Part shown: positions 2,195-43,446 of the stretch, one piece after another
Layout of the letters: each line of letters starts with the position of its first letter
How positions within the stretch are numbered: position 1 is the first letter of the stretch
From: Candidatus Magasanikiibacteriota bacterium
Lineage (GTDB): Bacteria > Patescibacteriota > Patescibacteriia > Magasanikbacterales > UBA922
Assembly (NCBI GenBank): GCA_041674805.1
Contig: JBAYVA010000002.1
Span: forward strand, 83,234 to 147,233
Direction: 5' to 3'
DNA length: 64,000 nt
Notes under the pieces: generated by a model
What the model was told of the DNA's origin: nothing
Database searches by the model: none
Seen by the model: only the letters and a program-made list of their open reading frames with translations
Position numbers and translations under genes: made by a program

Positions 2195-3892
2195 CTACTT
2201 TAAAAAGCTAATTCCTGAGGTAAATCTTAGTTGCATTTCATCTTTTTGACTTTTACGAAGATCAAAAAATGTCTTATTTGTCAAAGGTTTATTTTGAATA
2301 ATATCAGAAATCCACTGTCCTCCCAACAAGTGTGTCATCATCACATAATTGGCTCCAGCTTCATATAAATCATCCAAATAAGTATTATGATAAAGATTAC
2401 CAATAATAATAACTTTTTTATTTATTTTTCTAATGTGTTTGAACAAAATGATTTGATCATCAGGATTAGGTATTGTACAAACTATCATTTCTGCTTTTTC
2501 CAAAGGCAAACTTTCCAAAAATTCTATATCACTAACATCCCCAAAAAATGCCGGAATATGTCTATTTTTCAAAACTTTTACTGCTTCAGGATTATAATCC
2601 ACTACCGCATATTTCATATTTTTTTCAGCAAAACCTTCACACACTTTCCAACCAATACGATGATAACCAAAAACCCAATTAGTAAAAATTTCTTCATTTT
2701 TTTCTATTTGTTTGTGCTTATCATGTCCGAACAAATTGAAGACTGGACGCAAAAATTCAAAAATCTTCTCACTATAAGTAATAAGATAAGAAGATACAAT
2801 AATAGTTGTCAAAGCGACAATAGTAAAAATTTCTAATTCTTTGCCAACCACATGTCCCAAATTTCTTCCAACAATCAAAAGCACAAAACCAAATTCACTG
2901 ACCTGAGCCGCTGTCACACCAGCCAAAAAACTATTTCTTCTTGTGAATTTTTGTGAACGAAAAGCCCAATACAAAACAAAAGGATTACCAATCAAAATAA
3001 ATAAAGATAAAATCAAACCATTTATCCAAATTCCATCCAAATTAGTAAGTGACATTTCACTACCCAAAATAATAAAAAATATCACAATAAAAAAATCACG
3101 CAAAGGTTTGATACGACTAGAAATTTCTGATTGAAAAGGCGAAGAACCAAGAGTAAGACCAGCTACTATAGCACCAATTTCCAAAGAAAAACCCAACCAA
3201 TATAACAAACTAGAAATACCAAAACACCAAGTCAAAGTAAAAATAAAAAGAAATTCACCAGACTTCGCCACACTTTGTAAAATTTTTGGAATAATATATC
3301 TCGCTGTCAGTCCAACAAATCCCAACAAAATAAATATCTTACCAACTAATTCTCCTACTTCTACCCAAATATTATTTCCTTGACCTAATGATGTCACCAT
3401 CATCATAATAAAAATAGCCACAATATCTTGTACTACCATGAGACCAATAGTATATCTACCATAAACACTTTCAGTGTCTTTTTTGTCTGCCAATAATTTT
3501 ACAATAATAATAGTACTAGAGAAAGTCAAAGCCAAAGCCAAATAAATAGCTGACGATGCTGAAAATTTCATGGCAAGAAGTATCAAAAAGCCAAGAGAAG
3601 CTGTAAATATTACTTGGGCCATACCTGTAATGACCGCAACTTTACCAATACTCTTGATATGTTGAATATTGAGACTTAAACCTACCACAAACAAAAGCAA
3701 CACAACACCAAATTCAGCCAAAGCATCAAAAGTATGTCCACCTTCTTGCAACAAATTCAAAAACATCGGACCAGCAATAATGCCAGCAATCAGATAAGAA
3801 ATTAAAAGTGGTTGTTTTAACAAACGCAATACAAAAGCTACAGAAACAGTAATACCAAGCAAAGCAGAAATTTGAAGAAAAATATTATCCAT
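2195..3892 (-). CDS. CPA2-family monovalent cation:proton antiporter (KefB-like) with a C-terminal RCK/TrkA-N domain
   Basis: 565 aa with about 12 predicted TM helices, consistent with a Na_H exchanger fold. The C-terminal part has a Rossmann-like RCK segment (KYAVVDYNPEAVKVL...IIIGNLY). Confidence 0.65.
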   Translation of the reverse strand: MDNIFLQISALLGITVSVAFVLRLLKQPLLISYLIAGIIAGPMFLNLLQEGGHTFDALAEFGVVLLLFVVGLSLNIQHIKSIGKVAVITGMAQVIFTASLGFLILLAMKFSASSAIYLALALTFSSTIIIVKLLADKKDTESVYGRYTIGLMVVQDIVAIFIMMMVTSLGQGNNIWVEVGELVGKIFILLGFVGLTARYIIPKILQSVAKSGEFLFIFTLTWCFGISSLLYWLGFSLEIGAIVAGLTLGSSPFQSEISSRIKPLRDFFIVIFFIILGSEMSLTNLDGIWINGLILSLFILIGNPFVLYWAFRSQKFTRRNSFLAGVTAAQVSEFGFVLLIVGRNLGHVVGKELEIFTIVALTTIIVSSYLITYSEKIFEFLRPVFNLFGHDKHKQIEKNEEIFTNWVFGYHRIGWKVCEGFAEKNMKYAVVDYNPEAVKVLKNRHIPAFFGDVSDIEFLESLPLEKAEMIVCTIPNPDDQIILFKHIRKINKKVIIIGNLYHNTYLDDLYEAGANYVMMTHLLGGQWISDIIQNKPLTNKTFFDLRKSQKDEMQLRFTSGISFLK

Positions 3893-3953: not shown

Positions 3954-6900
3954 TTATTTAGAAATAAATTTTTTAATCAATTTTTTTATTTTTGAAAAAA
4001 TATTTTCTCCATTACTTTTCAAAAAAAGTCCAAACAAAATAGCAGTAAAACCACCAGCTGTAGCTGTTAAATATTTTTCAACAATATCCGCGTTGTCTTG
4101 CTCTTTGGCTTTTTCTTTTTTTGTTACCAAATCTTCACTAACACCTGTTTTAATAATATCATTTTGATCACGTGGCAACAATTGATATTCTGTTTTTGTT
4201 TGATGAAGTAGTCCAGTAATACTTACTAAATTACCTTCTTCAAATATATCTTTTTTTATACCAGCTCCTCTCTTAAAATATACTTTTATTTCCTCAGTTC
4301 CATCGTCTACATACATATAAGAACTTTTTATTTCTGTAATTTCACCACTTACCAAAATAAGACTACCTTCATATTGTTCCCCCACATCTTCTAATTCCAA
4401 GACTCTACCAATTGGTAATTCACTATGTCCCAATTTTTTTATATCATTTTTTTCTTTTAATTTTATTCTAGTTTCACCAGAAGTTTCTGTAATTTCTCCC
4501 ATAACTTCTATTTTGTCTCCCCTTTTTAAATCTGGAAAATCTTTACTAAACATATAAATTTGTACACCAGCATTTTCAGAAACTATATAAAAAATTTGTG
4601 TACCCATTATACCTGGTTCTACTGCTACTGTACCTGTCACACTAATCATATCACCCAAATCTTCATCACGTATTTTTTCTAAACTAGTGTTTATAACTGC
4701 TTTCACTGAATTACTCTTACTTTTTACTATTTTAACGGATTTTACTTCTGTTATTTCTTCTACAAAATTTACCTCACCAGGGCTAATAATTTTATTCCAA
4801 ATCCAGTTACCTTCACTATTACGAACATAAGAGGCTCCTTCTATTACATCATCAAATCTTACTTCCATTATAATAGTTCCATCAGGATACAAAAGACGCA
4901 CAGAATCACTAGTGTTATTCAAAGCCAACTTTGTATCTTGGCGACCAAAGACTTTATATTCTTTAGCTTTTATCAAAGTATTAGCTCCTACAGTATAAGC
5001 TTTTGATCCACCTTCTTCATCATCAATTTTTAAACCCGAAATATCAACATCTTCTTCTGTAGGATTGTGAATTTCAATAAATTCAGTAGTATCTGAACCT
5101 ACTGGATTTGGCAAAATCTCTGAAATGTACAAAACAGATATATCACTTGTTCCAGCATAACCACCCACAAAATCTTGAGACAATTTTACACTTAAAACAA
5201 CATCCTTTTTACTTTCATTACTACCATCACTTACTGTCAAAGATACAGTATAAACTCCTTGTTGCAAAAATTTATGTTCTACACTCGCGCCATCTTCATC
5301 AGTCCCATCAGCAAAATCCCAATGAAATTTTAAATCTTTTCCTTCTGGACTAACAGTATCAGAAGCATCAAATTTCACCCATTCATTTACAGCTACTTCG
5401 GTATCTACATCAAGTGCAATAATTGGTGCTGCACTTTTACCTTCTACTATGTTTTTGCTTCCAGCAGTAATTTTACTACTCCATACCCAAGTAGCATCAT
5501 CTTGCCTCACATAACTAAAAGAATCACTAGCACTACCAGGATAACTTACACTATTTACGATTGCCCCATTTGGAGAAAATAATTTTACTTCATCTCCTCC
5601 TGTATTATTTAGAGCTATTTGTGTCATAGTTCTTTTGAAAACAATGAATTCATTTGCTTTCAATACACCTTGTTTTATTGTATATTTTTTCTTACTAGAA
5701 TCAGATAATTGCCAATCTTTCAAATCAATAGTTTCTGTACCTTTATTCCAAATTTCAATAAACTCATCATCACTATCACTACCTGGAGGATTTGGATAAA
5801 TTTCATTCAAAACTATGTTTGTTTGCAAAGAAAAAATTTCTTGTTTTTCCAAATCTTCAGCTTTTAAAGATAAAACATTTTTTTGTCCCCTAGTAATAGT
5901 ATCTGTAATTATAAAATCATAATAATCATTATCAGCATCTTGTCCATCTGTTTTTCTTATCAACGAATATGGATCACTTGCCACAGCAGCATTATCATAA
6001 GTATTACCATCATCCCAATTGCCATAAGTAACTTTATCTATTTCTTTTTTACTAGGATCTAATAATAACAAAATATCACCAGCATTATTGAGACTTCCTT
6101 TTGGTTCCTCAATTACAAAAAAACCTTTAGGCAAAATAGTCCCTGTCAAAATCGTAATTGTTTCACTACCATCTTCCAAAGACCAATCATTTAAATCAAT
6201 AATTTCTGAAGTGTTGTTATATATTTCTACGAATTCTTTTTCTCCATCACTAGGATCAGAAACCAACTCGTTTATGACCAAATCTCGTGCATTATAATTT
6301 TTTGTTGTTACTTCAGAACTAGAAGACGAACCTCCACCAGAACTAGAAACTGGAATATTTTTAATAATATTGACTTCACCTGGCGTTGGTTCTGTGGTAA
6401 TAGAAAAATCATTTTTATTATTTCCCGTGTTTTGACCATCCACGATTCTCGCCACAGAATAAGGATCACTGTGTGCAGGAGCGTTGTCTGAAATATCTTC
6501 ATCAAAAAAATCTATCCAATCACCAAAACGCACTGTGTCTATCAAATTACCAGAATTATCATACAAAAAAATACCATCACCATCATTGTTCAATTTACTA
6601 GACAAAATATTTACTCGCAAAAAACTTTTTGTTTCCAAAATATTATCCAAAACCAAAATTTTTTTTGTGCTACTACTACTTTTGTCACCTTCGTGCACTT
6701 CCCAATCTTTCAAATCAATAGTAGAGGTAGAATTATTATATATTTCTACCCATTCATTTTCACCAGCCACAGGATCACTTACAAATTCATTAATAACTAT
6801 TTCATAATTAGGAATAGTATTTGTCGTGGTAGTAGTACTTTCAAAATTTTCTACTATACTAAAGTTAAAAATGTCACTTGCAAAATCATTTTTATCATCT

Positions 6901-7697
6901 ATAACTTTTAATTCAAGACTAAAGTTGCCAATATCAGAAAAAATATATGAAAAAAAAGAACTAGTTGATAAAAGTATATTATCAAACAACCAATTATACT
7001 CTACTATTTGGCCATCACTATCACTAGAAGTACTACCATCAAAATCTACAGCTTTTGATTTTTGAAAAATGTTTCCACTTGTAACAATTTTGGCAACAGG
7101 TTTTTGATTTTGAATATCATTATTATCTAAAGACCAATAATTTTTTTGTCCTACCGAATTATTGTCTGGATGTTCTTGCCAATTATCAATATTATTTATT
7201 GGCTGAAATACATCCATTCTTTCCAAAGAATGATTATTTTGGATGGCTTTATAAACAAAATTTTCTATGAAACTATCATCTTTTTTTAAACCTATTTCTT
7301 CTCCACCCTTGTTCAAAGTTGTCCAAGAACTGTCCAAAATTAAAGAAGAAAAATTTGGATATCTCTCAAAAAAATTCAAATCATTTTGAGTAATTACAGC
7401 GTATCCTTTTGGAGCTAAAATAAAAGTTTGAAACAAACTTTTTTCACTAATATTTAAACTATGATTAGTATCTGCTTCCCAAAATTTCCAGCCAGTCAAA
7501 TCCATACTTTCATCACCTTTGTTATAAATTTCTATCCACTGAAAACCACTTTCAGCACAACCAGTAGGACAAATTTCTGTAATCACCACATCATTATCAG
7601 AACCAAAAACAAAATTTTTAAATAAAAAAACACTCAATATAAGTGCTAAAAAAAACAAACTAAATTTTCTTAATTTAATAAAAAAAATTTTAATCAT
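3954..7697 (-). CDS. Giant extracellular protein (1247 aa) with N-terminal signal/TM, about five lamin-tail-domain (LTD) repeats, a PKD domain, tandem C-terminal OB-fold-like domains, and a C-terminal TM anchor with a basic tail
   Basis: LTD-type repeats: NEFVSDPVAGENEWVEIYNNSTSTIDLKDW, VINELVSDPSDGEKEFVEIYN, LNEIYPNPPGSDSDDEFIEIWN, ISEILPNPVGSDTTEFIEIHN. A PKD-like segment: KFDASDTVSPEGKDLKFHWDFADGTDEDG...YTVSLTVSDGS. The C-terminus has an OB-like pair (VTGTVAVEPGIMGTQIFYIVSENAGVQIY and SLILVSGEITEIKSS) followed by FTAILFGLFL and KKLIKKFISK. Confidence 0.7.
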   Translation of the reverse strand: MIKIFFIKLRKFSLFFLALILSVFLFKNFVFGSDNDVVITEICPTGCAESGFQWIEIYNKGDESMDLTGWKFWEADTNHSLNISEKSLFQTFILAPKGYAVITQNDLNFFERYPNFSSLILDSSWTTLNKGGEEIGLKKDDSFIENFVYKAIQNNHSLERMDVFQPINNIDNWQEHPDNNSVGQKNYWSLDNNDIQNQKPVAKIVTSGNIFQKSKAVDFDGSTSSDSDGQIVEYNWLFDNILLSTSSFFSYIFSDIGNFSLELKVIDDKNDFASDIFNFSIVENFESTTTTTNTIPNYEIVINEFVSDPVAGENEWVEIYNNSTSTIDLKDWEVHEGDKSSSSTKKILVLDNILETKSFLRVNILSSKLNNDGDGIFLYDNSGNLIDTVRFGDWIDFFDEDISDNAPAHSDPYSVARIVDGQNTGNNKNDFSITTEPTPGEVNIIKNIPVSSSGGGSSSSSEVTTKNYNARDLVINELVSDPSDGEKEFVEIYNNTSEIIDLNDWSLEDGSETITILTGTILPKGFFVIEEPKGSLNNAGDILLLLDPSKKEIDKVTYGNWDDGNTYDNAAVASDPYSLIRKTDGQDADNDYYDFIITDTITRGQKNVLSLKAEDLEKQEIFSLQTNIVLNEIYPNPPGSDSDDEFIEIWNKGTETIDLKDWQLSDSSKKKYTIKQGVLKANEFIVFKRTMTQIALNNTGGDEVKLFSPNGAIVNSVSYPGSASDSFSYVRQDDATWVWSSKITAGSKNIVEGKSAAPIIALDVDTEVAVNEWVKFDASDTVSPEGKDLKFHWDFADGTDEDGASVEHKFLQQGVYTVSLTVSDGSNESKKDVVLSVKLSQDFVGGYAGTSDISVLYISEILPNPVGSDTTEFIEIHNPTEEDVDISGLKIDDEEGGSKAYTVGANTLIKAKEYKVFGRQDTKLALNNTSDSVRLLYPDGTIIMEVRFDDVIEGASYVRNSEGNWIWNKIISPGEVNFVEEITEVKSVKIVKSKSNSVKAVINTSLEKIRDEDLGDMISVTGTVAVEPGIMGTQIFYIVSENAGVQIYMFSKDFPDLKRGDKIEVMGEITETSGETRIKLKEKNDIKKLGHSELPIGRVLELEDVGEQYEGSLILVSGEITEIKSSYMYVDDGTEEIKVYFKRGAGIKKDIFEEGNLVSITGLLHQTKTEYQLLPRDQNDIIKTGVSEDLVTKKEKAKEQDNADIVEKYLTATAGGFTAILFGLFLKSNGENIFSKIKKLIKKFISK

Positions 7698-7823
7698 ATT
7701 CCCCCCTTAAAAGATTAGATTATAAAAACAAAAATATTATAACATAAAATTTTAAAAAATAAAAAGCCGTTTGACAACTTTGTGGACAAAGATCTATACT
7801 TACTAAAATAAAAAGAAAAAAAT

Positions 7824-8126
7824 ATGAAATACAATAAACTTATTCGTGATAAAATCCCAGAAAATTTAAATAAAAAAAACGTAAAATACAAAATTCATAT
7901 TGCCGACGAAAAAGAATATGAAGAAAAATTACGAGAAAAACTCGGTGAAGAAATGCAAGAATTTTTAAAAAATTCCAATGTAGAAGAATTAGCCGATATC
8001 TTGGAGGTAATATACGCTCTTTGCACTTTTTATAAGATAGACAGAAAAGACTTAGAAAAAACAAGAAAAGAAAAATTCGAAAAAAAGGGAGGTTTTAATG
8101 ATAAAATTATTTTAGAAGAAAGTTAA
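7824..8126 (+). CDS. Small MazG-like nucleoside-triphosphate pyrophosphohydrolase (house-cleaning NTP-PPase family)
   Basis: 100 aa. It has the KLIRDKIPE start and an EExxE/ELADILE acidic helix pair typical of stand-alone MazG/HisE-like pyrophosphohydrolases. A TTGACA-18-TATACT promoter lies upstream at about 7773-7802. Confidence 0.55.
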   Translation: MKYNKLIRDKIPENLNKKNVKYKIHIADEKEYEEKLREKLGEEMQEFLKNSNVEELADILEVIYALCTFYKIDRKDLEKTRKEKFEKKGGFNDKIILEES

Positions 8127-8187: not shown

Positions 8188-9591
8188 TTATTTTCTAACG
8201 TAAGAAAGTGGATTAACAAATTTTCCATTTACACGAATTTCAAAGTGAGTGTGAGGTCCAGTAGAACGACCTGTAGATCCCATCAAGGCAATCGTTTGTC
8301 CTTGTGTCACATAGTCACCAACTTCTACAAATAATTTTGAGTTATGCCCATATAAAGATACTACACCATTACCATGATCAATTTTGATATAACAACCATA
8401 TCCACCATTATAACCACATTGTGAAGTAATTACAGTACCAGCTTTGGTTGCATAAATGGCTGTACCAATAGGGCCTGCAACATCCAAGCCAGTGTGTTTC
8501 AACCCATAATATTGGGTAACAATCTTAGCAGCAGTTGGCCACAAATAACCAGAACCAGCAGGAGCTTCTACTGAAGAAGGTAAAGCAACTACATTATTAT
8601 AAGAAGCAGGCCTTGTCGCTACATAAGTTGGTTTTTTAATTTCTTCCACTTTTTTGCCACCAGGAACGATAAGCAGTTCCCCTATCACAATATCAGCACC
8701 ACCCTCTTCCAATTTATTAAATTTTATAATTTCATCAGAATTCGCACCATAAACTTTGGCAATTTTGGAAATAGTATCATTTTTAACTACTTTGTGTGTC
8801 ACACCATCAGTTGGTAAAATAATCAAAGTTTGATTTGGTTTAATAGTAGACCTTGCAGTTAAATTGTTTGCCCATAAAATTGTATTTACACTAATACCAA
8901 AACGACTTGCTATTTCTCCTATTACATCCCCAGACTGTACAACATATTCCAAAATTTCACTTCTATTAGTTTTTACAATTTGTGAACCATTCGAATTTTG
9001 ATTTGCCAACTCTGAACCAGGAATAATTGTTGGTTTAGTTACTGCACTACCACCGACAGTGACACTTACCAAATCTTCTAATTTATTACTTTTATTTAAA
9101 ACTTCTTTGCTATTTTCTACAGAAATACTACCATCTTTCCAATTCAAATTACTTTTATCACTGTTATTTGTGTTTATATTGTTTACAAGTATTTCTTCTT
9201 CATAAAAGTCTTGATCACTAGTGTCGATAATTTTATATAGCAAAGAATTTCTACCAGAAATTTCACCAAATTCTTTGGTATATAATTTAGTATGGGGATA
9301 CATAATAACAAAAAATATTATAAACAAAAAAATCTGAAGAACACCTCTTCTACCAAAAATTTCTATTTTACTTTCTTGTCTAAATAATTTTAATTTATTT
9401 AAATTTTTTTTACTATAAAAAAGGGCTTTAAACAATACAAACCCCAAAGTTCTTTTATAAATATTATTAACAAATAACAAAAATTTCCAAAAAAAAGATA
9501 TCCCGAAAAAAGTAAACCTTTTTAAATATATCAAAGACTTAAGTAAATATAATATAAATTTGTAAAATTTTTGATTCATAGGTATGTCCAA
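8188..9591 (-). CDS. M23-family (LytM-type) peptidoglycan endopeptidase with two LysM domains and an N-terminal TM segment
   Basis: C-terminal HxxxD...HxH M23 signature (GLDVAGPIGTAIYA...GPHTHFEIRVNGKFVNP). Two LysM-like segments (YVVQSGDVIGEIASRFGISVNTILWANNL and HKVVKNDTISKIAKVYGANSDEII). The true start may be downstream of the first ATG. Confidence 0.75.
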   Translation of the reverse strand: MDIPMNQKFYKFILYLLKSLIYLKRFTFFGISFFWKFLLFVNNIYKRTLGFVLFKALFYSKKNLNKLKLFRQESKIEIFGRRGVLQIFLFIIFFVIMYPHTKLYTKEFGEISGRNSLLYKIIDTSDQDFYEEEILVNNINTNNSDKSNLNWKDGSISVENSKEVLNKSNKLEDLVSVTVGGSAVTKPTIIPGSELANQNSNGSQIVKTNRSEILEYVVQSGDVIGEIASRFGISVNTILWANNLTARSTIKPNQTLIILPTDGVTHKVVKNDTISKIAKVYGANSDEIIKFNKLEEGGADIVIGELLIVPGGKKVEEIKKPTYVATRPASYNNVVALPSSVEAPAGSGYLWPTAAKIVTQYYGLKHTGLDVAGPIGTAIYATKAGTVITSQCGYNGGYGCYIKIDHGNGVVSLYGHNSKLFVEVGDYVTQGQTIALMGSTGRSTGPHTHFEIRVNGKFVNPLSYVRK

Positions 9592-9824: not shown

Positions 9825-10373
9825 TTATTTGTAAAAAATTTCCATTTTTACTCTTTTTACACCAAAATTTACAGCTTCATTTCTAGTTGGCATCCAAATA
9901 TCACCACGTCCGTAACCATATCTAGCATTCATTCTATCTCTTACTACGAAGATTTTGTCAACATAAAGATCTGGAAAACGTACTTTTGTTCCTAAAGGTA
10001 AAAAGTTAGCAGCAATTGTATTTTGTTCGCCAAACTTTTCATAGTTTTCACACAAATTATACTTATAATCTGCAGGAATACAAGGTGTGCTATCAGTTTG
10101 TCCAACATCACTTGAATAAGCTGTCATCACAGCCATTACAATTTTTCTAGGTTCAGCATCTTCAATATCAGGAAAAGAAGCTACTTCTTCCTCAGTTTCT
10201 TCTGCTTGAGCTACGTTATTTTTGAAAAAATCGCTAATTTTAGCAAAAAAGTCTCCTTTTGCTTCTACAACTTCTGGTTGTAAGGTATTAAACAAAACAG
10301 AGAAGACAACTATCAAAGATAAACTACCCTTAAAAAGGTGTTTATTTAGCTCTTTTTTTAATGTTTTTTTCAT
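9825..10373 (-). CDS. Secreted 3D-domain (RlpA/MltA-like double-psi beta-barrel) cell-wall protein
   Basis: N-terminal signal/TM. The C-terminal segment IFVVRDRMNARYGYGRGDIWMPTRNEAVNFGV resembles the 3D domain, with three conserved Asp. Confidence 0.5.
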   Translation of the reverse strand: MKKTLKKELNKHLFKGSLSLIVVFSVLFNTLQPEVVEAKGDFFAKISDFFKNNVAQAEETEEEVASFPDIEDAEPRKIVMAVMTAYSSDVGQTDSTPCIPADYKYNLCENYEKFGEQNTIAANFLPLGTKVRFPDLYVDKIFVVRDRMNARYGYGRGDIWMPTRNEAVNFGVKRVKMEIFYK

Positions 10374-10528: not shown

Positions 10529-13363
10529 ATGCCGATACAAAAAAGGTCTTATGGTTACCTAAATAATCACAAAAAAAACAAAAATAACCCAAACTCCGAA
10601 CTAAAAAAGAAAATCAAAAAAATTATTTTATTAAGTACTTTGTTTTTATCTGTTTTCACGATACTTTTTGTGACAATTTTAACAGCTTGGATTAGTAAAG
10701 ACTTACCAGATCCAAACAAACTAACTGATAGAAAAATTGCCCAAAGTACCAAAATTTATGATAGAACAGGACAACACTTACTCTATGAAATTTTTGCTGA
10801 TGAAAAACGTACCCTTATTGAATTTGAACAACTACCAAAAGATTTGATAAATGGTGTAGTTGCTACTGAAGATACCAAATTTTATGAACACAGTGGTATT
10901 AGACCTTTATCTATCTTTCGTTCTATCATTGCAGGTATTTTTACCAAACAACGCATTGGCAGTGGTGCCTCTACTCTTACTCAACAACTAGTCAAAAATG
11001 CTATTTTAACTAATGAAAGATCTGTCTTACGTAAAATAAAAGAAGCAGTCATGACAATAAGATTGGAACAAAAATATACCAAAGAACAAATATTAAAAAT
11101 TTATTTCAATGAAATACCTTATGGCTCTACCAATTACGGTGTAGAATCAGCTGCCCAAAGTTATTTTGGTAAAAAAACTAGTGAATTAACACTGGCTGAA
11201 TCAGCTACTTTGGCAGGTATTCCCAAAGCCCCTTCCAAATATATAAATGACAATGAAGCTTTGAAACAAAGACGTGATTTCGTTTTACGCAGAATGTACG
11301 AAGAAGGATATATTACCGAAGAACAAAAAAATCAAGCTCAAGCTGAAGAACTAAAAATTAAAAAAACTTTTCATAAGATGGAAGCCCCTCATTTTGTTGA
11401 ATATGTACACGAGCAGTTGGCTGCCAAATATGGAGAAACAACTCTTGATACAGAAGGTCTAAAAGTCATAACTACTCTTGACTGGGACAAACAACAAATT
11501 GCTGAAAAAATAATGGAAGAAGAATCTGAACAAATATTAAAAGATGCTGGCGCCAACAACACATCTTTGGTAGCAATTGATCCCAAAACAGGACAACTGT
11601 TGGCTATGTTAGGTTCTCGTAATTATTATGATGACACTATAAAAGGTCAATTCAATGTAGCAACTTTGGGAACAAGACAGCCAGGTTCTTCTTTTAAACC
11701 TATTATTTATGCTGCCGCTTTTGAAAAAGGCTATACTCCCGATACTATTTTATTTGATACATTAACAAATTTTGCTGTTTCAGGACAACCTTATATTCCC
11801 AAAAATTATGATTTGAAAGAAAGAGGTCCTGTCACTATCAGACAAGCTCTGCAAGGATCTTTAAATATACCAGCTGTTAAAGCAATGTATCTTGTCGGTG
11901 AAAAAAATGCTGAAACATTCTCCAAAAAACTTGGTTACACTACTATTAAAGATGGACAAGCTGGTCTATCATTAGTCTTGGGTGGTGGAGCTGTAAAACT
12001 ATTGGAGCATACTAATACTTTTGCCACCTTTGCTAACAAAGGTTACAAAAATGAAATAGTTACTATTTTGAAAGTAGAAGATGCCAATGGCAAAATATTG
12101 GAAGAATGGAAAAACAAAAAAGGAGAAAAAGTAATAGAAGAAGATACCGCCAATAATATTTCTAATATTTTGAGTGATGACGCTGCTCGTGCTTATATGT
12201 TTGGGGCTGGAGGAATTTTGACTTTACCTGGTAGACCAGTAGCTGCCAAAACAGGTACTACCAACAACTACGTAGATTCTTGGACTATGGGCTATACACC
12301 TTCTTTGGCTACAGGTGTCTGGGCAGGAAACACTAATAATTCACCAATGAAAGCTGGTTATGGTGGTAGTATGGTAGCTGCCAAAATTTGGAACAGTTTT
12401 ATGAAACAGGCTTTACAAAACACTGCTGTAGAAAATTTTCCACCACTACCAAAAAATACAGCTGAAAAACCTGTGCTAAAAGGATCAGAAGGAGGAAAAG
12501 TTACTTTAAAAATAGACAAAGCCACAGGAAAATTAGCTTCTACTTCTACACCTGAATATTTGATTGAAGAAAAAACATATATACAAGCTCATTCCATATT
12601 ACATTATGTAAAAAAAGATGATCCACGCGGTGAAGCTCCAGAAAATCCTAGTGACGATCCACAATATCTTGGTTGGGAAAAAGGCATAGAAGATTGGATA
12701 AATAAAAATAAAGAAGCCAATCCTGAATGGAATTTTAGTTTTGAAGAACCACCAACAGAATATGATGATGCCCATAGTTTGGAATTATTACCAAGTATTG
12801 AAATTGTATATCCTGCAAATGACGGAAAAATAAATACCCGACAATTGGATACAGATATTCGTGTTAGTGCACCAAGAGGTATTGCCAAAGTAACTTATCA
12901 ATTAGATGGCGTTTATGTTGGTGTTGTAAATTTACATCCTTTCAATCTTCACTATTACATGGAAGAACAAGATTCTGGGGAACATACTCTAAAAATAACA
13001 GCTGAAGATGATATAGGAAACCGCATGGAAAAAGAAATAAAATTTATTTTGGAAACTTCCGAAGTAAAAGCTACTGTAACATTTTTAGAAAATTATAATA
13101 TCATTAAAAAAGAAAATTTTCCAAAAACAATTACTTTGAAACCTATCAAATTAAATGAAATAAAAAGTGTATCATTATATTATGAAAATAATGGACAAAA
13201 AAATTTGATAGAAACTATAAACACTTTTGATAATTTAATTAATAATCAAATATTTATTAGTTGGAAAAGTTCCCCACAAATTGGTAAATACAAATTATTA
13301 GCAGAAACAATTGATAATAATAATGAAAAATCAATTTCAACATTAGAAATAGAAATACAATAA
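10529..13363 (+). CDS. mrcA: Bifunctional class A penicillin-binding protein 1A (glycosyltransferase plus transpeptidase) with a long C-terminal extension
   Basis: GT51 motifs EDTKFYEHSGI and RIGSGASTLTQQ. Transpeptidase motifs SSFKP, SLN and KTGTT. N-terminal TM anchor. 944 aa. Confidence 0.85.
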   Translation: MPIQKRSYGYLNNHKKNKNNPNSELKKKIKKIILLSTLFLSVFTILFVTILTAWISKDLPDPNKLTDRKIAQSTKIYDRTGQHLLYEIFADEKRTLIEFEQLPKDLINGVVATEDTKFYEHSGIRPLSIFRSIIAGIFTKQRIGSGASTLTQQLVKNAILTNERSVLRKIKEAVMTIRLEQKYTKEQILKIYFNEIPYGSTNYGVESAAQSYFGKKTSELTLAESATLAGIPKAPSKYINDNEALKQRRDFVLRRMYEEGYITEEQKNQAQAEELKIKKTFHKMEAPHFVEYVHEQLAAKYGETTLDTEGLKVITTLDWDKQQIAEKIMEEESEQILKDAGANNTSLVAIDPKTGQLLAMLGSRNYYDDTIKGQFNVATLGTRQPGSSFKPIIYAAAFEKGYTPDTILFDTLTNFAVSGQPYIPKNYDLKERGPVTIRQALQGSLNIPAVKAMYLVGEKNAETFSKKLGYTTIKDGQAGLSLVLGGGAVKLLEHTNTFATFANKGYKNEIVTILKVEDANGKILEEWKNKKGEKVIEEDTANNISNILSDDAARAYMFGAGGILTLPGRPVAAKTGTTNNYVDSWTMGYTPSLATGVWAGNTNNSPMKAGYGGSMVAAKIWNSFMKQALQNTAVENFPPLPKNTAEKPVLKGSEGGKVTLKIDKATGKLASTSTPEYLIEEKTYIQAHSILHYVKKDDPRGEAPENPSDDPQYLGWEKGIEDWINKNKEANPEWNFSFEEPPTEYDDAHSLELLPSIEIVYPANDGKINTRQLDTDIRVSAPRGIAKVTYQLDGVYVGVVNLHPFNLHYYMEEQDSGEHTLKITAEDDIGNRMEKEIKFILETSEVKATVTFLENYNIIKKENFPKTITLKPIKLNEIKSVSLYYENNGQKNLIETINTFDNLINNQIFISWKSSPQIGKYKLLAETIDNNNEKSISTLEIEIQ

Positions 13364-14122: not shown

Positions 14123-15250
14123 TTATTTTTTAATAGGCATAACGATATACAAGTAATTGTCTTTTTCTTTTGGTCTAAAAATACAAGGAGCATCAGCACT
14201 ATTTACACCAAATTCAATGTTTTCACCTTCCATGTGTGCTAAACCATCCAACACATAGCTGTGGTTTAATAAAATGGAATTTTCTTCACCAATTACTTCA
14301 GCATCAACTTCAGAAGTATGTTCTCCAGCTTGAGTACTGGAAGAAGAAACTCCTACATTTTTTTTGCTTGGACTAAGCTCAAAAGAAACAGCATTGATAC
14401 CACCTGACGTAAACAAACTCGCTGCTTTGATTTTGTTGACCATAACACTTAGCGGAAAAGCAGCTGTTGTTTTAAAATTGTTTGGAATAATTTGTGTATA
14501 ATCTGGATAACGGCCTTCAATCAAACGACTAGTCATTTCAAAATTTCCATAACGAATAGCTATTTGATTATCACTTACCCAAACACGAACAATATCTTCA
14601 CCGCCATGACTTTTGGCAATTGTCAAAAGACGATTTATTTCATAAGCTACGCGTGCTGGTACAATACAGTGCACATTTTGAATTTCACCTTGTTTAATTT
14701 TTATTTTAGCTTCTGCCAAACGATAAGAATCTGTTGCTGCTAATACTAATCCATCATATTTTTCTGAAAAAAATGAAAAATAAATACCTGAAAATTCTGG
14801 TCTTACTTCGTTTTTGGAAACAGCTATAATAACTTTGCCAATAGCTTCTTTCAAATCATCAACTTGAACAACATAAGAATTTTTTTCTTCCACTTCTGGT
14901 AAAATTGGATAATCTTCATCTGTTGATCCTTTGATTTTAGTGCTAGAATTACCTGAAGTTATGATTAATTCATTGCCTTTTTGGTCTATTTCTACTTGTT
15001 CGCTTGTCAATAACTTAACATAATCTGCCAAAGTTTTTGCTGGAACTGTAAAATTTCCAGTAGTTTCTACTTTGGCTCTAATTTGTGTTTTTACTGCAAT
15101 TTCTAAGTTAGTACTGCTAATTTCAATACCTGAATCATTGGCTTTGATAAGTACGTTACTCAAAATTGGTAAGTTTGTATGTTTACTAGCTAAGGAACTC
15201 ACAAGACTCAAGGAATATTCTAAGTTTTCTTTTGTACATGTGAATTTCAT
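14123..15250 (-). CDS. dnaN: DNA polymerase III beta sliding clamp
   Basis: 375 aa. N-terminus MKFTCTKENL...LPILSNVLIKA is typical of DnaN, and the gene is immediately downstream of dnaA. Confidence 0.85.
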   Translation of the reverse strand: MKFTCTKENLEYSLSLVSSLASKHTNLPILSNVLIKANDSGIEISSTNLEIAVKTQIRAKVETTGNFTVPAKTLADYVKLLTSEQVEIDQKGNELIITSGNSSTKIKGSTDEDYPILPEVEEKNSYVVQVDDLKEAIGKVIIAVSKNEVRPEFSGIYFSFFSEKYDGLVLAATDSYRLAEAKIKIKQGEIQNVHCIVPARVAYEINRLLTIAKSHGGEDIVRVWVSDNQIAIRYGNFEMTSRLIEGRYPDYTQIIPNNFKTTAAFPLSVMVNKIKAASLFTSGGINAVSFELSPSKKNVGVSSSSTQAGEHTSEVDAEVIGEENSILLNHSYVLDGLAHMEGENIEFGVNSADAPCIFRPKEKDNYLYIVMPIKK

Positions 15251-15764
15251 ATGTTTGTTGTTTTATTAGTATATATATATTTATATAACTAGTAATATAT
15301 AATAAGGCCTGTGTGTAAAGTGCGAAAGTCGTTTTTTTGTTTTGGTTGACTTATTTTTTTGTGTGGACTTCTGCGCTTAAACTGTGTTTTTAAATGTGGT
15401 ATTTCTGGTGATAACTTTTTTTTAATTTTTTTCCTGTTGATGAACTGTTGATTTGTGGATAGATTATGAACAGTCTTTTTTTAGTTATCAACTTTTTTGT
15501 TATCGAGAATTTTTTTTGTGAATTGTTTGTTATTAACTTTTTTTAAATATTATTTTTAAAGGAATAATTTTTATTAGTTTTTGTTTGTCTTGTCAGAACT
15601 CTTAGTTTGGAGTTGATAGAATGAATCTAATAAAAATATAATTTTTTGTTTGCTAATAAAACTTCTCTGTTTTTTTGTTGAGAAATTTTTCAAAAATTAT
15701 AATGATTTACAATTTTTGAAAAATCCCTCATCTTTTTTTTAAAAAGATTTTTGGGATTATTTTT
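15251..15764. promoter_or_regulatory. dnaA-dnaN intergenic region, oriC part: DnaA-box-like sites plus an AT-rich unwinding element
   Basis: TGTGGATAG at 15454-15462 and TGTGGACTT near 15362. An extremely AT-rich tract runs 15530-15600. No ORFs. Confidence 0.5.
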
Positions 15765-41955: not shown

Positions 41956-42438
41956 ATGCCTATTGAATCACGTAAAGATTTTATTTCTTGGGATGAGTGT
42001 TTTATGCGCATTGCTCACGTTATTGCTTTGCGTTCTAAGGATCCTTCTACGCAGGTGGGTGCTGTAATTGCTGATAGGGATAATGTGGTTATTGGTCTTG
42101 GTTATAATGGTTTTCCAAGGGGTATTGAAAGTGATAAATTACCTTGGGATAGAGAAGGTGAAAAATTATCTGATACCAAGTATGCCTATGTTTGTCATGC
42201 TGAAGAAAATGCAATATATAATTCAAGTAAACAGCCAAAAGATTGTAAAATTTATTGCTCTCTTTTCCCTTGTAATGAATGTGCTAAGACAATTGTCCAA
42301 AATGGAATTACAGAAATAGTTTATGAGAGTGACAAATATCATGATGATGATATTTTTGTAGCCTCACGTCGTATCTTGGATGCGGCTGGTGTAGTTTGTC
42401 GACAATTTATTTCAGAAGAAACAAAAAATAAAGAATAA
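41956..42438 (+). CDS. dCMP deaminase (ComEB-type cytidine/deoxycytidylate deaminase)
   Basis: CHAEENAI...PCNECAKTI zinc-binding motifs. 160 aa. Confidence 0.8.
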   Translation: MPIESRKDFISWDECFMRIAHVIALRSKDPSTQVGAVIADRDNVVIGLGYNGFPRGIESDKLPWDREGEKLSDTKYAYVCHAEENAIYNSSKQPKDCKIYCSLFPCNECAKTIVQNGITEIVYESDKYHDDDIFVASRRILDAAGVVCRQFISEETKNKE

Positions 42439-42443
42439 AAAAT

Positions 42444-43007
42444 ATGTCAAATAAAATAATTTTAGGTTTTGTTGGTGATTTGGCTTCTGGTAAGGGAACC
42501 TTGGCTAAATATTTACAAGAAAAGTATAATTGTAATACTTACAGATTTTCTAATATGCTTCGTGATGTTTTAGATAGAATCTATGTAGAAAAAAATCGTG
42601 AAAATATGCAACTCGTTTCAAAAGTATTGCGCGAAAATTTTGGGCAAGATGTGATGAGCAATGTCATTGCCAAAGATGTGGTTGGTGACAAAAATGAACT
42701 TGTTGTGGTAGATGGTATTAGACGTCCAACTGACATCACTTATTTACAAAATTTAGAAGGTTTTCATCTAATATATATTACAGCTGACGTCAAAACTCGT
42801 TGGCAAAGAATGGTGAATCGTCAAGAAAATCCTGATGAAAAAGACAAAACGTTTGAACAATTTTTACTTGATGAACAAGCAGAAGCAGATATGCTGATAA
42901 AAGAGCTTGGTAGTAAAGCTGAAAAAACAATAAATAATGATGGTACAATCGAAGAACTTTATAACAAAATAGAAAATATTTTAGAAAGTTATGGACATAA
43001 AAATTAA
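42444..43007 (+). CDS. P-loop nucleotide kinase (dNMP-kinase-like)
   Basis: Walker A GDLASGKGT and a DGIRRP NMP-kinase-like motif. It sits between the dCMP deaminase and dUTPase genes and overlaps dut by 17 nt. Confidence 0.5.
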   Translation: MSNKIILGFVGDLASGKGTLAKYLQEKYNCNTYRFSNMLRDVLDRIYVEKNRENMQLVSKVLRENFGQDVMSNVIAKDVVGDKNELVVVDGIRRPTDITYLQNLEGFHLIYITADVKTRWQRMVNRQENPDEKDKTFEQFLLDEQAEADMLIKELGSKAEKTINNDGTIEELYNKIENILESYGHKN

Positions 43008-43425: not shown

Positions 43426-43446
43426 TGCAGATTAGTATTGATATTT

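What the first reader, a model, noticed from the sequence alone, without database searches (positions are those of the whole stretch)
3954..7697. 1247-aa LTD-repeat, PKD and tandem OB-fold surface protein: a candidate extracellular DNA-binding or uptake factor
It has five lamin-tail-domain repeats, a PKD domain, and a C-terminal pair of OB-fold-like modules similar to the DNA-binding OB domains of ExeM/NucH-type extracellular nucleases, but no visible nuclease (EEP) domain. It is anchored by a C-terminal TM plus a basic tail. In nucleotide-auxotrophic CPR cells such proteins are thought to capture environmental DNA. The gene also lies next to cell-wall remodelling genes (M23/LysM, 3D-domain, PBP1A).
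Basis: partly seen in the sequence, partly recalled or inferred. Interest (0 to 1): 0.5.

Follow-up and report, generated by a model that had tools for sequence, protein, structure and literature searches.

The report
Membrane-anchored DNA-catching surface protein of CPR
This is a real, well-conserved 1247-residue surface protein of an ultrasmall (Candidatus Magasanikbacteria) bacterium that most likely holds extracellular DNA at the cell surface without cutting it. It is an enzyme-less member of a modular family whose other members carry a nuclease or a ComEA-type DNA-binding domain.

Summary
The ORF at 3954..7697 (-) is real. It is identical to NCBI MFA7245084.1, "lamin tail domain-containing protein", from a Candidatus Magasanikbacteria MAG.

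Its architecture is: signal peptide, LTD1, PKD1, LTD2, LTD3, LTD4, PKD2, LTD5, tandem OB folds, conserved C-terminal membrane helix (EKYLTATAGGFT...), basic tail. That is five LTDs and two PKDs, not one PKD. No gap between domains exceeds 17 residues, so no catalytic domain is hidden.

Close relatives with the same LTD/OB/TM scaffold also carry a ComEA-type HhH domain, a staphylococcal-type nuclease with intact catalytic residues, or both.

Best reading: a non-catalytic, membrane-anchored receptor for extracellular DNA. A role in uptake is untested.

The cell-wall gene neighbours are not conserved. A Kef-type antiporter gene directly downstream is conserved, and this is unexplained.

Verdict: a new variant of a known kind, of moderate interest.

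The parts
3954..7697 (-). Whole gene, 1247 aa plus stop codon. Identical to NCBI MFA7245084.1, 'lamin tail domain-containing protein', Candidatus Magasanikbacteria MAG.
7701..7777 (-). Upstream region. It holds a Shine-Dalgarno sequence (AAGGGGGG, 7701-7708) and a sigma-70-like site (TTGTCA-17-TAAAAT, 7777-7749). It is shared divergently with the + strand gene at 7824..8126.
   Evidence: These are consensus matches only, not proof of function.
7602..7697 (-). Sec-type signal peptide, aa 1-32 (MIKIFFIKLRKFSLFFLALILSVFLFKNFVFG).
   Evidence: Kyte-Doolittle 2.21 for aa 14-32. The cleavage site is inferred by eye.
7122..7601 (-). LTD1 (aa 33-192), the most divergent lamin-tail repeat, with an insertion.
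   Evidence: Pfam LTD 55.9 bits. Repeat alignment; own HMM.
6828..7115 (-). PKD1 (aa 195-290), the least conserved domain: 28% mean identity to orthologues.
   Evidence: Pfam PKD_4 43.6 bits
6351..6818 (-). LTD2 (aa 294-449).
   Evidence: Pfam LTD 56.3 bits
6303..6350 (-). Ser/Gly-rich flexible linker (aa 450-465, ...SSSGGGSSSSS...).
5859..6302 (-). LTD3 (aa 466-613).
   Evidence: Pfam LTD 63.0 bits. 61% mean identity to orthologues.
5442..5840 (-). LTD4 (aa 620-752).
   Evidence: Pfam LTD 72.7 bits
5163..5441 (-). PKD2 (aa 753-845).
   Evidence: Pfam PKD_4 75.7 bits, PKD 49.6 bits
4749..5156 (-). LTD5 (aa 848-983).
   Evidence: Pfam LTD 59.9 bits. 62% mean identity to orthologues.
4413..4709 (-). 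OB fold 1 (aa 997-1095).
4122..4412 (-). OB fold 2 (aa 1096-1192). Together with OB1 it forms the DUF5689-like tandem-OB module.
   Evidence: Pfam tRNA_anti-codon and DUF5689 30.2 bits (cut-off 28.6). Foldseek top hits are tandem-OB HIN dsDNA binders, at low TM-score.
4074..4121 (-). Short, charged, poorly conserved juxtamembrane linker (aa 1193-1208).
4020..4073 (-). Conserved C-terminal membrane helix (aa 1209-1226, YLTATAGGFTAILFGLFL). The YLTATAGG.T motif is nearly invariant in the Magasanikbacteria-type clade, and this is the most conserved segment of the protein (70%).
   Evidence: No match to any NCBIfam sorting-signal model.
3957..4019 (-). Lys-rich cytoplasmic tail (aa 1227-1247).
   Evidence: (pI 9.8)
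2195..3892 (-). Downstream Kef-type CPA2 antiporter gene (Na_H_Exchanger + TrkA_N), separated by 61 bp with no terminator-like site. It is the only conserved neighbour; the reason is unknown.
   Evidence: Present on the same strand downstream in 38 of 68 related loci and directly adjacent in 32.

Best explanation
The gene encodes a non-catalytic, membrane-anchored receptor for extracellular nucleic acid, most likely DNA, in a Candidatus Magasanikbacteria (CPR/Patescibacteria) cell.

**Proposed mechanism.** Each step is marked as shown or inferred.
1. A Sec signal peptide exports the protein. The C-terminal hydrophobic helix and Lys-rich tail hold it in the cytoplasmic membrane in type I topology. 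(Sequence shown; topology inferred.)
2. A tandem OB-fold module sits about 17 residues from the membrane. It is homologous to DUF5689/DdbD and to the OB region of ExeM/NucH nucleases, and it binds DNA without sequence specificity. (Fold and homology shown; binding inferred.)
3. Five lamin-tail domains and two PKD Ig-like domains, with a Ser/Gly hinge, form a long stalk or array projecting through and beyond the wall. It acts as a spacer and possibly as additional DNA contact surface. (Domains shown; role inferred.)
4. The protein has no hydrolytic domain. It therefore concentrates or holds DNA at the surface for partners acting in trans, such as secreted nucleases and nucleoside transport, or the type IV pilus/ComEC route. 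(Inferred; partners not identified.)
5. The unusually conserved Gly/Ala/Thr-rich membrane helix suggests oligomerisation or docking to a membrane partner. (Speculative.)

The protein is one configuration of a modular CPR family. In that family LTD, OB pair and TM anchor are the constant scaffold, while a distal ComEA-type HhH domain and an SNase nuclease are optional additions.
For: **Architecture and fold**
- Domain calls.
- AF2 model with pLDDT above 90 over both barrels.
- Foldseek top hits are tandem-OB dsDNA- or ssDNA-binding proteins: p202, AIM2, IFI16 HIN domains and Teb1.

**Family link**
- The OB pair scores 30.2 bits on DUF5689, cut-off 28.6.
- 12 of 14 OB pairs and 27 of 44 relatives hit DUF5689. 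P0145 scores 55.5 bits over profile positions 16-217 of 217.
- DUF5689 proteins are DdbD and RA0C_RS04920.
  - DdbD is the predicted DNA-binding partner of the DdbC transporter in a locus required for exogenous DNA metabolism. Its authors likewise aligned its model to a p202 dsDNA-binding domain, citing PDB 4JBM (bioRxiv 10.1101/2025.03.18.642099).
  - RA0C_RS04920 was recovered in a transposon screen for natural-transformation genes in Riemerella (PMC8459023).

**Domain fusions in close relatives** (E below 1e-60 to the OB-pair profile)
- P0222 is HhH + LTD + SNase + LTD + PKD + LTD + OB pair + TM.
- P0168, P0158 and P0181 are LTD + SNase + LTD + OB.
- Nine proteins carry an N-terminal HhH.
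- That HhH is 60-83% identical to roughly 100-aa proteins, several of which their sources name ComEA.
- The SNase domains keep D21, R35, D40, T/S41, E43 and R87.
- The P0222 and P0134 loci (L089, L088) carry an FtsK-Lactamase_B_3 pair downstream of the gene. L089 and the L005 locus of the nuclease-less orthologue P0041 both carry Lactamase_B_3, a hypothetical gene and GyrA downstream. This suggests positional orthology.

**Precedent**
- In ExeM and Xds (LTD + OB + EEP + C-terminal GG/TM/basic anchor), the OB region is essential for nuclease activity. The LTD is dispensable but enhances ExeM activity in vitro (PMC6085458, PMC6746945).

**Constraint**
- OB1, OB2, LTD3, LTD5 and the TM helix are the best-conserved parts, at 60-70%.
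Against: - No binding experiment exists for any member of this CPR family.
- The OB domains, and the whole ectodomain, are net acidic: pI 4.5-4.8 for the OB domains and 4.4 overall. That is not what a simple electrostatic DNA binder looks like.
- OB folds also bind oligosaccharides and proteins. BOF-family periplasmic OB proteins have no known DNA role.
- The Foldseek matches to HIN domains have low TM-scores (0.25-0.44) and high rmsd. They show only 'two OB folds in tandem'.
- The DUF5689 match covers only the C-terminal half of the profile and is just above threshold. On the full-length protein it is below threshold: 23.9 bits.
- Only 4 SNase-bearing and 9 HhH-bearing proteins were found among 274 in hand. 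Most members lack any domain with a proven DNA function.
- No competence, nuclease or nucleoside-transport gene is linked in any locus inspected.
- The only conserved neighbour is a cation/proton antiporter, which this model does not explain.
Confidence: 0.6

Rival explanations
1. Host or surface adhesin. The LTD and PKD Ig-like array is the business end and binds a host cell or particle surface, as expected for an episymbiotic CPR bacterium. The OB pair is merely a rigid membrane-proximal pedestal or binds a glycan.
For: - Seven Ig-like beta-sandwich domains make up about 75% of the protein.
- PKD1 and LTD1/LTD2 are the most variable parts (28-50% identity), as expected for surfaces that face a changing partner.
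- CPR bacteria depend on adhesins for epibiotic growth (PMC10633639).
- The window holds two further large PKD-bearing surface proteins.
- The ectodomain is acidic.
Against: - The most conserved modules are the OB pair and the TM helix, not a distal tip.
- Stand-alone proteins consisting of signal peptide + OB pair + TM, with no Ig domain, exist (P0017, P0019). Proteins with 5-6 OB-profile matches also exist, and the one scanned individually (P0141) has no LTD or PKD hit.
- The domains accreted in relatives are DNA-specific (ComEA-type HhH, SNase), not lectins or adhesin tips.
- LTD is typically found with nucleases and phosphoesterases in bacteria (Mans et al. 2004, as cited in PMC6085458).
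Confidence: 0.17
2. Cell-envelope structural or spacer protein. It would be a membrane-anchored strut that binds wall polymers (peptidoglycan or anionic phosphodiester polymers) through its OB and LTD domains and organises the wall or S-layer. This would fit the nearby M23/LysM, 3D-like and PBP1A genes.
For: - It is adjacent to M23/LysM (8188..9591) and PBP1A (10529..13363) in this window and in its closest relatives.
- It has a membrane anchor plus a long modular ectodomain.
- LTDs were proposed to tether proteins to membrane-associated structures (Mans et al. 2004, via PMC6085458 and PMC6746945).
Against: - The cell-wall neighbours are not conserved. M23/LysM occurs in 7 of 80 loci and PBP1A in 6 of 80. 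Loci of more distant orthologues are unrelated.
- No recognised wall-binding domain (LysM, SH3b, PG_binding, SLH) was found.
- In Xds the LTD is not needed for membrane association (PMC6746945).
- This reading does not explain the HhH and SNase fusions.
Confidence: 0.08
3. Processed and released factor. The conserved KYLTATAGG + helix + basic tail would be a sorting or cleavage signal, either rhombosortase/GlyGly-CTERM-like (as proposed for ExeM) or sortase-like. The ectodomain would then be released or covalently attached to the wall rather than staying membrane-anchored.
For: - The layout is tripartite: conserved motif, hydrophobic stretch, basic residues. The Gly-Gly sits at the start of the helix, as in the GlyGly-CTERM signal described for ExeM (PMC6085458).
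- The motif is nearly invariant across the clade while the flanks vary.
Against: - The C-terminal 58 residues hit no NCBIfam sorting-signal model (GlyGly-CTERM, LPXTG and others) even at E<=10.
- No other ORF in the window carries the motif.
- By-eye reading of the ORF translations and Pfam scans of 19 of the 53 other ORFs found no sortase or rhomboid in the window.
- The tail after the helix is 21 residues, longer than usual for such signals.
- Distant relatives keep only 'KYL' plus an ordinary, strongly hydrophobic helix.
- In ExeM itself, neither rhombosortase nor the GG motif mattered much.
Confidence: 0.1

Closest known systems
DUF5689 (PF18942) proteins: DdbD of the Bacteroides thetaiotaomicron ddbABCDEF DNA-utilization locus, and RA0C_RS04920 of Riemerella anatipestifer (natural transformation)
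   Same: Both have a tandem OB-type module exposed outside the cytoplasmic membrane. There is sequence similarity at Pfam-threshold level: 30.2 bits for the target's OB pair and up to 55.5 bits in close relatives. The structural resemblance to HIN-type tandem-OB dsDNA binders reported for DdbD also appears in my Foldseek search. Both are non-catalytic components associated with extracellular DNA handling.
   Different: [quoted passage not shown] The CPR protein has no such partner nearby. The organism is presumed to be monoderm (my own knowledge). The protein is anchored by a C-terminal helix in the cytoplasmic membrane and carries five LTDs and two PKDs, which DdbD is not reported to have. 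The match covers only profile positions 108-217.
ExeM / Xds / NucH-type extracellular nucleases (NCBIfam NF033681)
   Same: Shared features are an N-terminal signal peptide, a lamin-tail domain, a YhcR-like OB region required for DNA degradation, and a C-terminal Gly-Gly + hydrophobic helix + basic anchor with membrane association (PMC6085458, PMC6746945). There is a local sequence match of the OB region to the family model, positions 35-120.
   Different: The target has no EEP catalytic domain. It scores 20-26 bits against a cut-off of 300. It has five LTDs rather than one, and two PKDs. The known nucleases are gammaproteobacterial, whereas this is CPR. It therefore works like the substrate-binding half of these enzymes but is not a member of the family.
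ComEA (membrane-anchored dsDNA receptor of Gram-positive competence)
   Same: Both would be a single-pass membrane-anchored, non-catalytic DNA-binding protein on the outer face of the cytoplasmic membrane. Relatives of the target carry a bona fide ComEA-type HhH domain at their N-terminus.
   Different: The target itself has no HhH domain. Its anchor is C-terminal rather than N-terminal. Its presumed binding module is OB rather than HhH. No genetic link to comEC was seen.
Bacillus subtilis YhcR and streptococcal wall-anchored nucleases (OB + SNase, with or without 5'-nucleotidase, + LPXTG)
   Same: These are surface-anchored modular proteins that combine OB folds with a staphylococcal-type nuclease. 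The SNase-bearing CPR relatives (P0222, P0168, P0158, P0181) have that logic. JGI names some fragments of this family 'YhcR'.
   Different: The target lacks SNase and nucleotidase domains and has no LPXTG signal. LTD and PKD arrays are not part of YhcR.

Membership tests
Lamin tail domain (Pfam PF00932) | Sequence match above the gathering score (34.3 bits) | tested here: met
   Five separate copies score 55.9, 56.3, 63.0, 72.7 and 59.9 bits when scanned piece by piece. The whole protein scores 267.8 bits with 5 stretches.
PKD domain (Pfam PF18911 / PF00801) | Sequence match above the gathering score (27 / 23.5 bits) | tested here: met
   Two copies. PKD_4 scores 43.6 and 75.7 bits; PKD scores 26.1 and 49.6 bits.
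Nucleic-acid-binding OB fold (Pfam PF01336 tRNA_anti-codon; OB-fold superfamily) | Five-stranded beta-barrel with a sequence match above the cut-off (27 bits) | tested here: met
Nucleic-acid-binding OB fold | Actual binding of DNA or RNA | not testable with these tools
   This needs EMSA or anisotropy with the purified fragment. The net acidic charge (pI 4.5-4.8) is a caveat.
DUF5689 (PF18942; DdbD / RA0C_RS04920) | Sequence match above the gathering score (28.6 bits) over the domain | tested here: inconclusive
   The OB pair alone scores 30.2 bits, but only over profile positions 108-217 of 217. The full-length protein scores 23.9 bits, below the cut-off. Relatives pass clearly: P0145 at 55.5 bits over 16-217 and P0222 at 31.7 bits. 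12 of 14 OB pairs hit.
DUF5689 (DdbD-type) | [quoted passage not shown] | tested here: not met
   No such gene lies near the target or in any related locus. The feature is described in bioRxiv 10.1101/2025.03.18.642099 and PMC8459023.
ExeM/NucH extracellular endonuclease (NCBIfam NF033681) | Score at or above the 300-bit cut-off for the family model | tested here: not met
   20.5 bits for the full protein and 26.1 bits for the C-terminal fragment. The match covers only model positions 35-120 of 546.
ExeM/NucH extracellular endonuclease | C-terminal endonuclease/exonuclease/phosphatase (EEP) catalytic domain | tested here: not met
   No EEP hit in Pfam at E<=1. No inter-domain gap exceeds 17 residues. 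None of the 120 best full-length homologues carries PF03372.
ExeM/NucH extracellular endonuclease | N-terminal LTD followed by an OB region, and a C-terminal GG + TM + basic anchor | tested here: met
   LTD and OB are present. The C-terminus reads ...TATAGG-FTAILFGLFL-KSNGENIFSKIKKLIKKFISK. The ExeM layout is taken from PMC6085458.
ComEA | Helix-hairpin-helix DNA-binding domain (PF12836 / PF00633) | tested here: not met
   The target has no HhH hit. phmmer with the HhH of P0134 finds nothing in the window. Relatives P0134, P0138, P0171, P0184, P0192, P0191, P0204, P0269 and P0222 do carry one.
C-terminal protein-sorting signals (LPXTG/sortase, GlyGly-CTERM/rhombosortase and related NCBIfam models) | Match to a curated sorting-signal model, with a cognate processing enzyme in the genome | tested here: not met
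   The last 58 residues give no NCBIfam hit at E<=10. HMMER filters may drop very short weak matches. By-eye reading of the ORF translations and Pfam scans of 19 of the 53 other ORFs found no sortase or rhomboid in the 64-kb window. The rest of the genome was not available.

The most novel reading that the evidence does not exclude
The LTD/OB-pair/TM family is the dedicated extracellular-DNA receptor of ABY1-class Patescibacteria (Magasanikbacteria, Falkowbacteria, Buchananbacteria). It would be the functional counterpart of ComEA in Gram-positives and of DdbD/RA0C_RS04920 in Bacteroidota. It would capture DNA on a long LTD/PKD 'fishing rod'. Its unusually conserved Gly/Ala/Thr-rich membrane helix would dock it to a membrane partner, either the ComEC channel or another transporter. 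Lineages tune the system by adding a distal HhH clamp or an SNase 'cutter'. If true, it would also give the bacterial lamin-tail domain, whose function has been unknown since 2004, a concrete role in handling DNA outside the cell.
Probability: 0.2. Interest if true: 0.7.

Novelty: new variant of a known kind. Interest (0 to 1): 0.45.

Why it matters
**What is at stake**
- CPR/Patescibacteria are thought to live off other cells and to scavenge nucleic acids. Saccharibacteria are naturally competent.
- The core competence genes listed as conserved across CPR phyla in the one genetic study read here are ComEC, DprA and ComFC. No DNA receptor is among them (PMC10633639).
- A conserved, abundant, enzyme-less surface protein built from DNA-associated modules is a concrete, testable candidate for that first step, at least in one large CPR class.

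**Wider links**
- It connects three bodies of work that have so far been separate:
  - ExeM/Xds/NucH nucleases
  - Bacteroidota DdbD/DUF5689 DNA-utilization and transformation proteins
  - uncharacterised CPR 'lamin tail domain-containing proteins'
- Together they suggest a single theme: a tandem-OB module that handles DNA outside the cytoplasmic membrane.

**Practical uses**
- The OB pair (about 190 residues) is small and predicted with high confidence, so it is an easy target for binding assays.
- The family offers a natural series for dissecting what LTDs do: bare OB pair, + LTD, + HhH, + SNase.

Tried and rejected
1. **Sortase or rhombosortase signal.** I suspected the invariant KYLTATAGG + helix + basic tail was a sorting signal.
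   - NCBIfam on the last 58 residues gave nothing at E<=10.
   - A regex search found no other ORF in the window with such a tail.
   - Distant relatives have an ordinary TM helix.
   - I kept this only as a low-probability rival.
2. **Downstream neighbour of the stand-alone OB-pair proteins.** The 201-209-aa protein downstream of P0017 and P0019 looked like a possible processing enzyme. It has one N-terminal TM helix and no sortase-like features, so I dropped it.
3. **PDB by sequence.** The single sequence gave no hits. The OB-pair profile gave only an RPA2 hit at E 0.058.
4. **Foldseek against afdb50.** This would have let me compare with ExeM, DdbD and ComEC models. The library was not available.
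5. **Literature on LTD proteins in CPR.** Two searches found nothing specific.
6. **Do Magasanikbacteria lack a canonical ComEA?** I searched with the HhH of P0134. The search only confirmed that the domain is ComEA-type and that small HhH proteins exist in at least one CPR lineage (Berkelbacteria). It cannot show absence in this genome.
7. **Functional link to cell-wall genes.** Rejected because the synteny is not conserved.
8. **Hidden or degenerate nuclease domain.** Rejected because no unassigned segment exceeds 17 residues.
9. **ComEC, pilus, nuclease or nucleoside-transporter genes next to the gene.** None were found in 12 individually inspected loci. The 80 genome loci were tested only for homologues of ten of this window's own neighbouring genes.
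10. **Recent internal duplication of the LTDs.** Rejected because the repeats are only 23-42% identical to each other, and the five-LTD layout is shared by about 40 species.

Full report
**1. What is there**

The window is about 30% G+C. It carries dnaA (15765..17150) and dnaN (14123..15250) next to a GC-skew turn at about 17-18 kb.

The flagged ORF runs 3954..7697 on the minus strand: 1247 codons, ATG start. A strong ribosome-binding site (AAGGGGGG, 7701-7708) and a promoter-like site lie upstream, in a short divergent intergenic region.

The protein is identical to NCBI MFA7245084.1, [quoted passage not shown], on a 317-kb contig.

**2. Domain anatomy**

| Evidence | Result |
|---|---|
| Pfam LTD, whole protein | E 9e-81, five stretches |
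| Pfam PKD_4, whole protein | E 5e-31, two stretches |
| Pfam tRNA_anti-codon OB, whole protein | 35.1 bits (cut-off 27), two stretches |
| Each LTD scanned alone | 56-73 bits (cut-off 34.3) |
| Each PKD scanned alone | 44 and 76 bits (cut-off 27) |

The order of parts is:
- signal peptide (aa 1-32)
- LTD1 (33-192)
- PKD1 (195-290)
- LTD2 (294-449)
- Ser/Gly hinge (450-465)
- LTD3 (466-613)
- LTD4 (620-752)
- PKD2 (753-845)
- LTD5 (848-983)
- OB1 (997-1095)
- OB2 (1096-1192)
- 16-residue charged linker (1193-1208)
- conserved hydrophobic helix YLTATAGGFTAILFGLFL (1209-1226)
- Lys-rich tail (1227-1247)

No unassigned stretch is longer than 17 residues, so there is no room for a hidden catalytic domain. 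The five LTDs are only 23-42% identical to each other, so they are old repeats and not a recent expansion.

**3. The OB pair**

An AlphaFold2 model of the last 268 residues was built with 19 homologues. Its mean pLDDT is 83.8, and above 90 across residues about 20-210 of the fragment. It shows two five-stranded barrels followed by one long helix.

Foldseek, which aligns both barrels, ranks the tandem-OB HIN domains (p202, AIM2, IFI16, MNDA, several with dsDNA) and Teb1 first. TM-scores are only 0.25-0.44, so this shows the "two OB folds in tandem" topology and nothing finer.

Scanned on its own, the 193-residue OB pair scores:
- 43.4 bits on tRNA_anti-codon
- 30.2 bits on DUF5689 (PF18942, cut-off 28.6, profile positions 108-217)

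NCBIfam gives a local 26-bit match to the OB part of the ExeM/NucH model (positions 35-120 of 546, cut-off 300). The OB assignment is therefore solid. The similarity to ExeM/NucH is real but weak and local.

**4. The family and its variants**

More than 200 full-length homologues (30-68% identity) share the LTD/PKD/OB layout. Those that carry names are from Magasanikbacteria, Parcubacteria, Buchananbacteria or "Patescibacteria group" MAGs. A scan of one genome per GTDB species found 268 genomes with a relative. Named records again come from Magasanikbacteria, Falkowbacteria, Buchananbacteria, Parcubacteria and unclassified Patescibacteria.

In the 80 loci kept, the closest 40 or so species have five LTDs and more distant ones have 2-4. 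There is one copy per locus.

A profile of the OB pair finds 6057 clusters at E<=1e-3 and 1201 at E<=1e-30 among 1.84 billion representatives.

Among 44 close relatives chosen for atypical length (all E below 1e-60), Pfam counts were:

| Domain | Members of 44 |
|---|---|
| LTD | 34 |
| DUF5689 | 27 |
| PKD | 11 |
| SNase | 3 |
| ComEA-type HHH_3 | 2 |

Individual architectures:
- P0222: HhH, LTD, SNase, LTD, PKD, LTD, OB pair, TM.
- P0168, P0158, P0181: LTD, SNase, LTD, OB.
- P0134, P0138, P0171, P0184, P0192, P0191, P0204, P0269: N-terminal HhH, LTDs (with or without PKD), OB pair, TM.
- P0017, P0019: just signal peptide, OB pair, TM.
- P0141-P0143 carry 5-6 OB-profile matches; P0141, the one scanned individually, has no LTD or PKD.

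The HhH is 60-83% identical to roughly 100-residue proteins, several of which their sources name ComEA. The SNase domains keep all catalytic and Ca2+-binding residues of staphylococcal nuclease: D21, R35, D40, T/S41, E43, R87. That alignment uses the S. aureus sequence from my own memory.

The P0222 and P0134 loci both carry an FtsK-Lactamase_B_3 pair downstream of the gene. The P0222 locus and the locus of the nuclease-less orthologue P0041 both have Lactamase_B_3, a hypothetical gene and GyrA downstream. This suggests positional orthologues that gained or lost modules.

In summary:
- The constant scaffold is LTD(s), the OB pair and the C-terminal anchor.
- The optional modules are a dsDNA clamp and a nuclease.
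- The target is the plain, enzyme-less configuration, and this is the majority form: 4 SNase and 9 HhH among 274 proteins in hand, and none with a nuclease among the 120 best homologues.

**5. Link to characterised systems**

DUF5689 appears in only three papers of the searchable library, of which two were listed and read; both concern DNA.

- In Riemerella anatipestifer, the DUF5689 protein RA0C_RS04920 and the adjacent outer-membrane protein RA0C_RS04915 were recovered in a transposon screen for natural-transformation genes (PMC8459023).
- In Bacteroides thetaiotaomicron, the DUF5689 protein DdbD is encoded in the ddbABCDEF locus, which is required for metabolism of exogenous DNA.
  - DdbD is predicted to be the substrate-binding partner of the TonB-dependent transporter DdbC.
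  - Its authors aligned its model to a p202 dsDNA-binding domain, citing PDB 4JBM (bioRxiv 10.1101/2025.03.18.642099). The same HIN-domain entry appears among my Foldseek hits for the CPR module.
- For the ExeM and Xds nucleases (LTD, OB, EEP, C-terminal GG/TM/basic anchor), deletion analysis showed the following (PMC6085458, PMC6746945):
  - the OB region is essential for DNA degradation;
  - the LTD is dispensable, though its loss slows ExeM in vitro;
  - the LTD is not needed for membrane association of Xds.

These results make [quoted passage not shown] the best-supported inference. It remains an inference for the CPR protein.

**6. The anchor**

In the Magasanikbacteria-type clade, the motif (E)KYLTATAGG(L/F)T is nearly invariant while the flanking linker and tail vary. 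At 70% mean identity it is the most conserved segment of the protein, ahead of OB2 (62%), LTD5 (62%), LTD3 (61%) and OB1 (60%). PKD1 is lowest at 28%.

Its hydrophobicity is modest (KD 1.34 over 19 residues). Distant relatives keep "KYL" followed by an ordinary, strongly hydrophobic helix and basic residues. I therefore read it as a genuine membrane anchor.

I tested whether it might be a sorting signal:
- No NCBIfam sorting-signal model matches.
- No other ORF in the window has such a tail.
- No sortase or rhomboid was seen in the window, from by-eye reading of the ORF translations and Pfam scans of 19 of the 53 other ORFs.

A helix-helix packing role, either oligomerisation or docking to a membrane partner, is my speculation for its conservation.

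**7. Genomic context**

The M23/LysM peptidase (8188..9591) and PBP1A (10529..13363) are real neighbours. They accompany the gene only in the closest relatives: 7 and 6 of 80 loci respectively. Loci of more distant orthologues are unrelated.

The "3D-domain" ORF (9825..10373) has no Pfam hit even at E<=10. By eye its C-terminal half has a 3D-like pattern.

The one conserved neighbour is the Kef-type CPA2 antiporter directly downstream (2195..3892). The gap is 61 bp and there is no terminator-like site. A homologue lies downstream on the same strand in 38 of 68 loci with enough sequence, and directly adjacent in 32. I cannot explain this pairing. It may be lineage synteny or co-transcription.

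No ComEC, pilus, nuclease or nucleoside-transport gene is linked in any individually inspected locus.

**8. Interpretation**

The most likely function is a non-catalytic, membrane-anchored receptor that holds extracellular DNA at the cell surface (confidence about 0.6).
- The tandem OB module would be the binding core close to the membrane.
- The LTD/PKD array would be an extended stalk and possibly extra binding surface.

Whether captured DNA is passed to nucleases for nutrition or to the competence machinery is open. The "DNA uptake for nucleotides" premise has been weakened by the finding that ComEC is dispensable for growth of a Saccharibacterium (PMC10633639).

The main caveats are:
- the net acidic charge of the OB domains, pI 4.5-4.8;
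- the marginal and partial DUF5689 score;
- the minority status of the HhH and SNase fusions;
- the absence of any experiment.

The rivals are a host adhesin (0.17), a processed or released factor (0.10) and an envelope strut (0.08).

**9. Novelty and score**

The protein is already in databases under a generic domain name. Its components are known, and the LTD + OB + anchor logic is known from ExeM/Xds.

What is new:
- the recognition of a large, modular, CPR-specific family whose majority form lacks any enzyme;
- its link to DUF5689/DdbD;
- the natural series of HhH and SNase variants.

I rate it a new variant of a known kind, with interest 0.45.

Noticed in passing
window 2195..3892 (-), and loci L008-L087: A Kef-type CPA2 antiporter gene (Na_H_Exchanger + TrkA_N) lies directly downstream of the LTD/OB gene, with a 61-bp gap. 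A homologue sits downstream on the same strand in 38 of 68 related genomes and directly adjacent in 32, even where the OB pair is only about 45-50% identical. No functional reason is apparent.
   Followed up: partly
window 50819..53788 (+) and 54159..57431 (+): Two paralogous large surface proteins of 989 and 1090 aa. They have near-identical signal peptides, a PKD domain near the C-terminus and Thr/Asn/Glu-rich low-complexity stretches. They share a C-terminal 'EELPTWIKIIFGSGALAA.AGAGLAIN.VRKN' tail: an LPxT-like motif, a hydrophobic stretch and basic residues, resembling a sorting signal.
   Followed up: no
window 9825..10373 (-): A 182-aa secreted-looking protein has no Pfam hit even at E<=10. 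By eye its C-terminal half has a 3D/MltA-like pattern (TAY...PLGTKV...RDR...GDIW). It is conserved upstream of the M23/LysM gene in two of the closest relatives (L009, L013).
   Followed up: partly
window 14123..17150 (-) and about 17-18 kb: dnaN and dnaA lie next to the point where GC skew changes sign, so the window probably spans the replication origin.
   Followed up: no
window about 41956..45475 (+): A run of pyrimidine-salvage and dTMP genes, read by eye from translations only: a dCMP-deaminase-like gene, dUTPase, thymidylate synthase, DHFR and thymidylate kinase. A PRTase + cytidine/dCMP-deaminase fusion lies at 48066..49232 (Pfam). This is relevant to how the organism handles scavenged nucleotides.
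   Followed up: no
window 22120..24108 (-): A membrane pyrophosphatase-like gene (identified by eye) sits in the only G+C-rich stretch of the window: 0.40 against about 0.30. This could reflect horizontal acquisition or composition-constrained membrane protein coding.
   Followed up: no
proteins P0141-P0143, P0271, P0273: Relatives with 3-6 matches to the OB-pair profile in one polypeptide of up to 1511 aa. P0141, the only one scanned individually, has no LTD or PKD hit. They look like 'beads on a string' versions of the presumed binding module.
   Followed up: partly
loci L020, L024, L026, L029, L033 and others: Many GTDB genomes that carry this CPR-type gene have the record title 'uncultured Gammaproteobacteria bacterium' (TPA_asm, binchicken/SRP co-assemblies). 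Given the gene content, these titles are probably placeholder or erroneous taxonomy rather than true gammaproteobacterial occurrences.
   Followed up: no
loci L005, L088, L089: The P0134 (L088) and P0222 (L089) loci share an FtsK-Lactamase_B_3 pair downstream of the LTD/OB gene. L089 and the L005 locus of the nuclease-less orthologue P0041 share Lactamase_B_3, a hypothetical gene and GyrA. This hints at an old conserved chromosomal neighbourhood despite the domain shuffling.
   Followed up: partly
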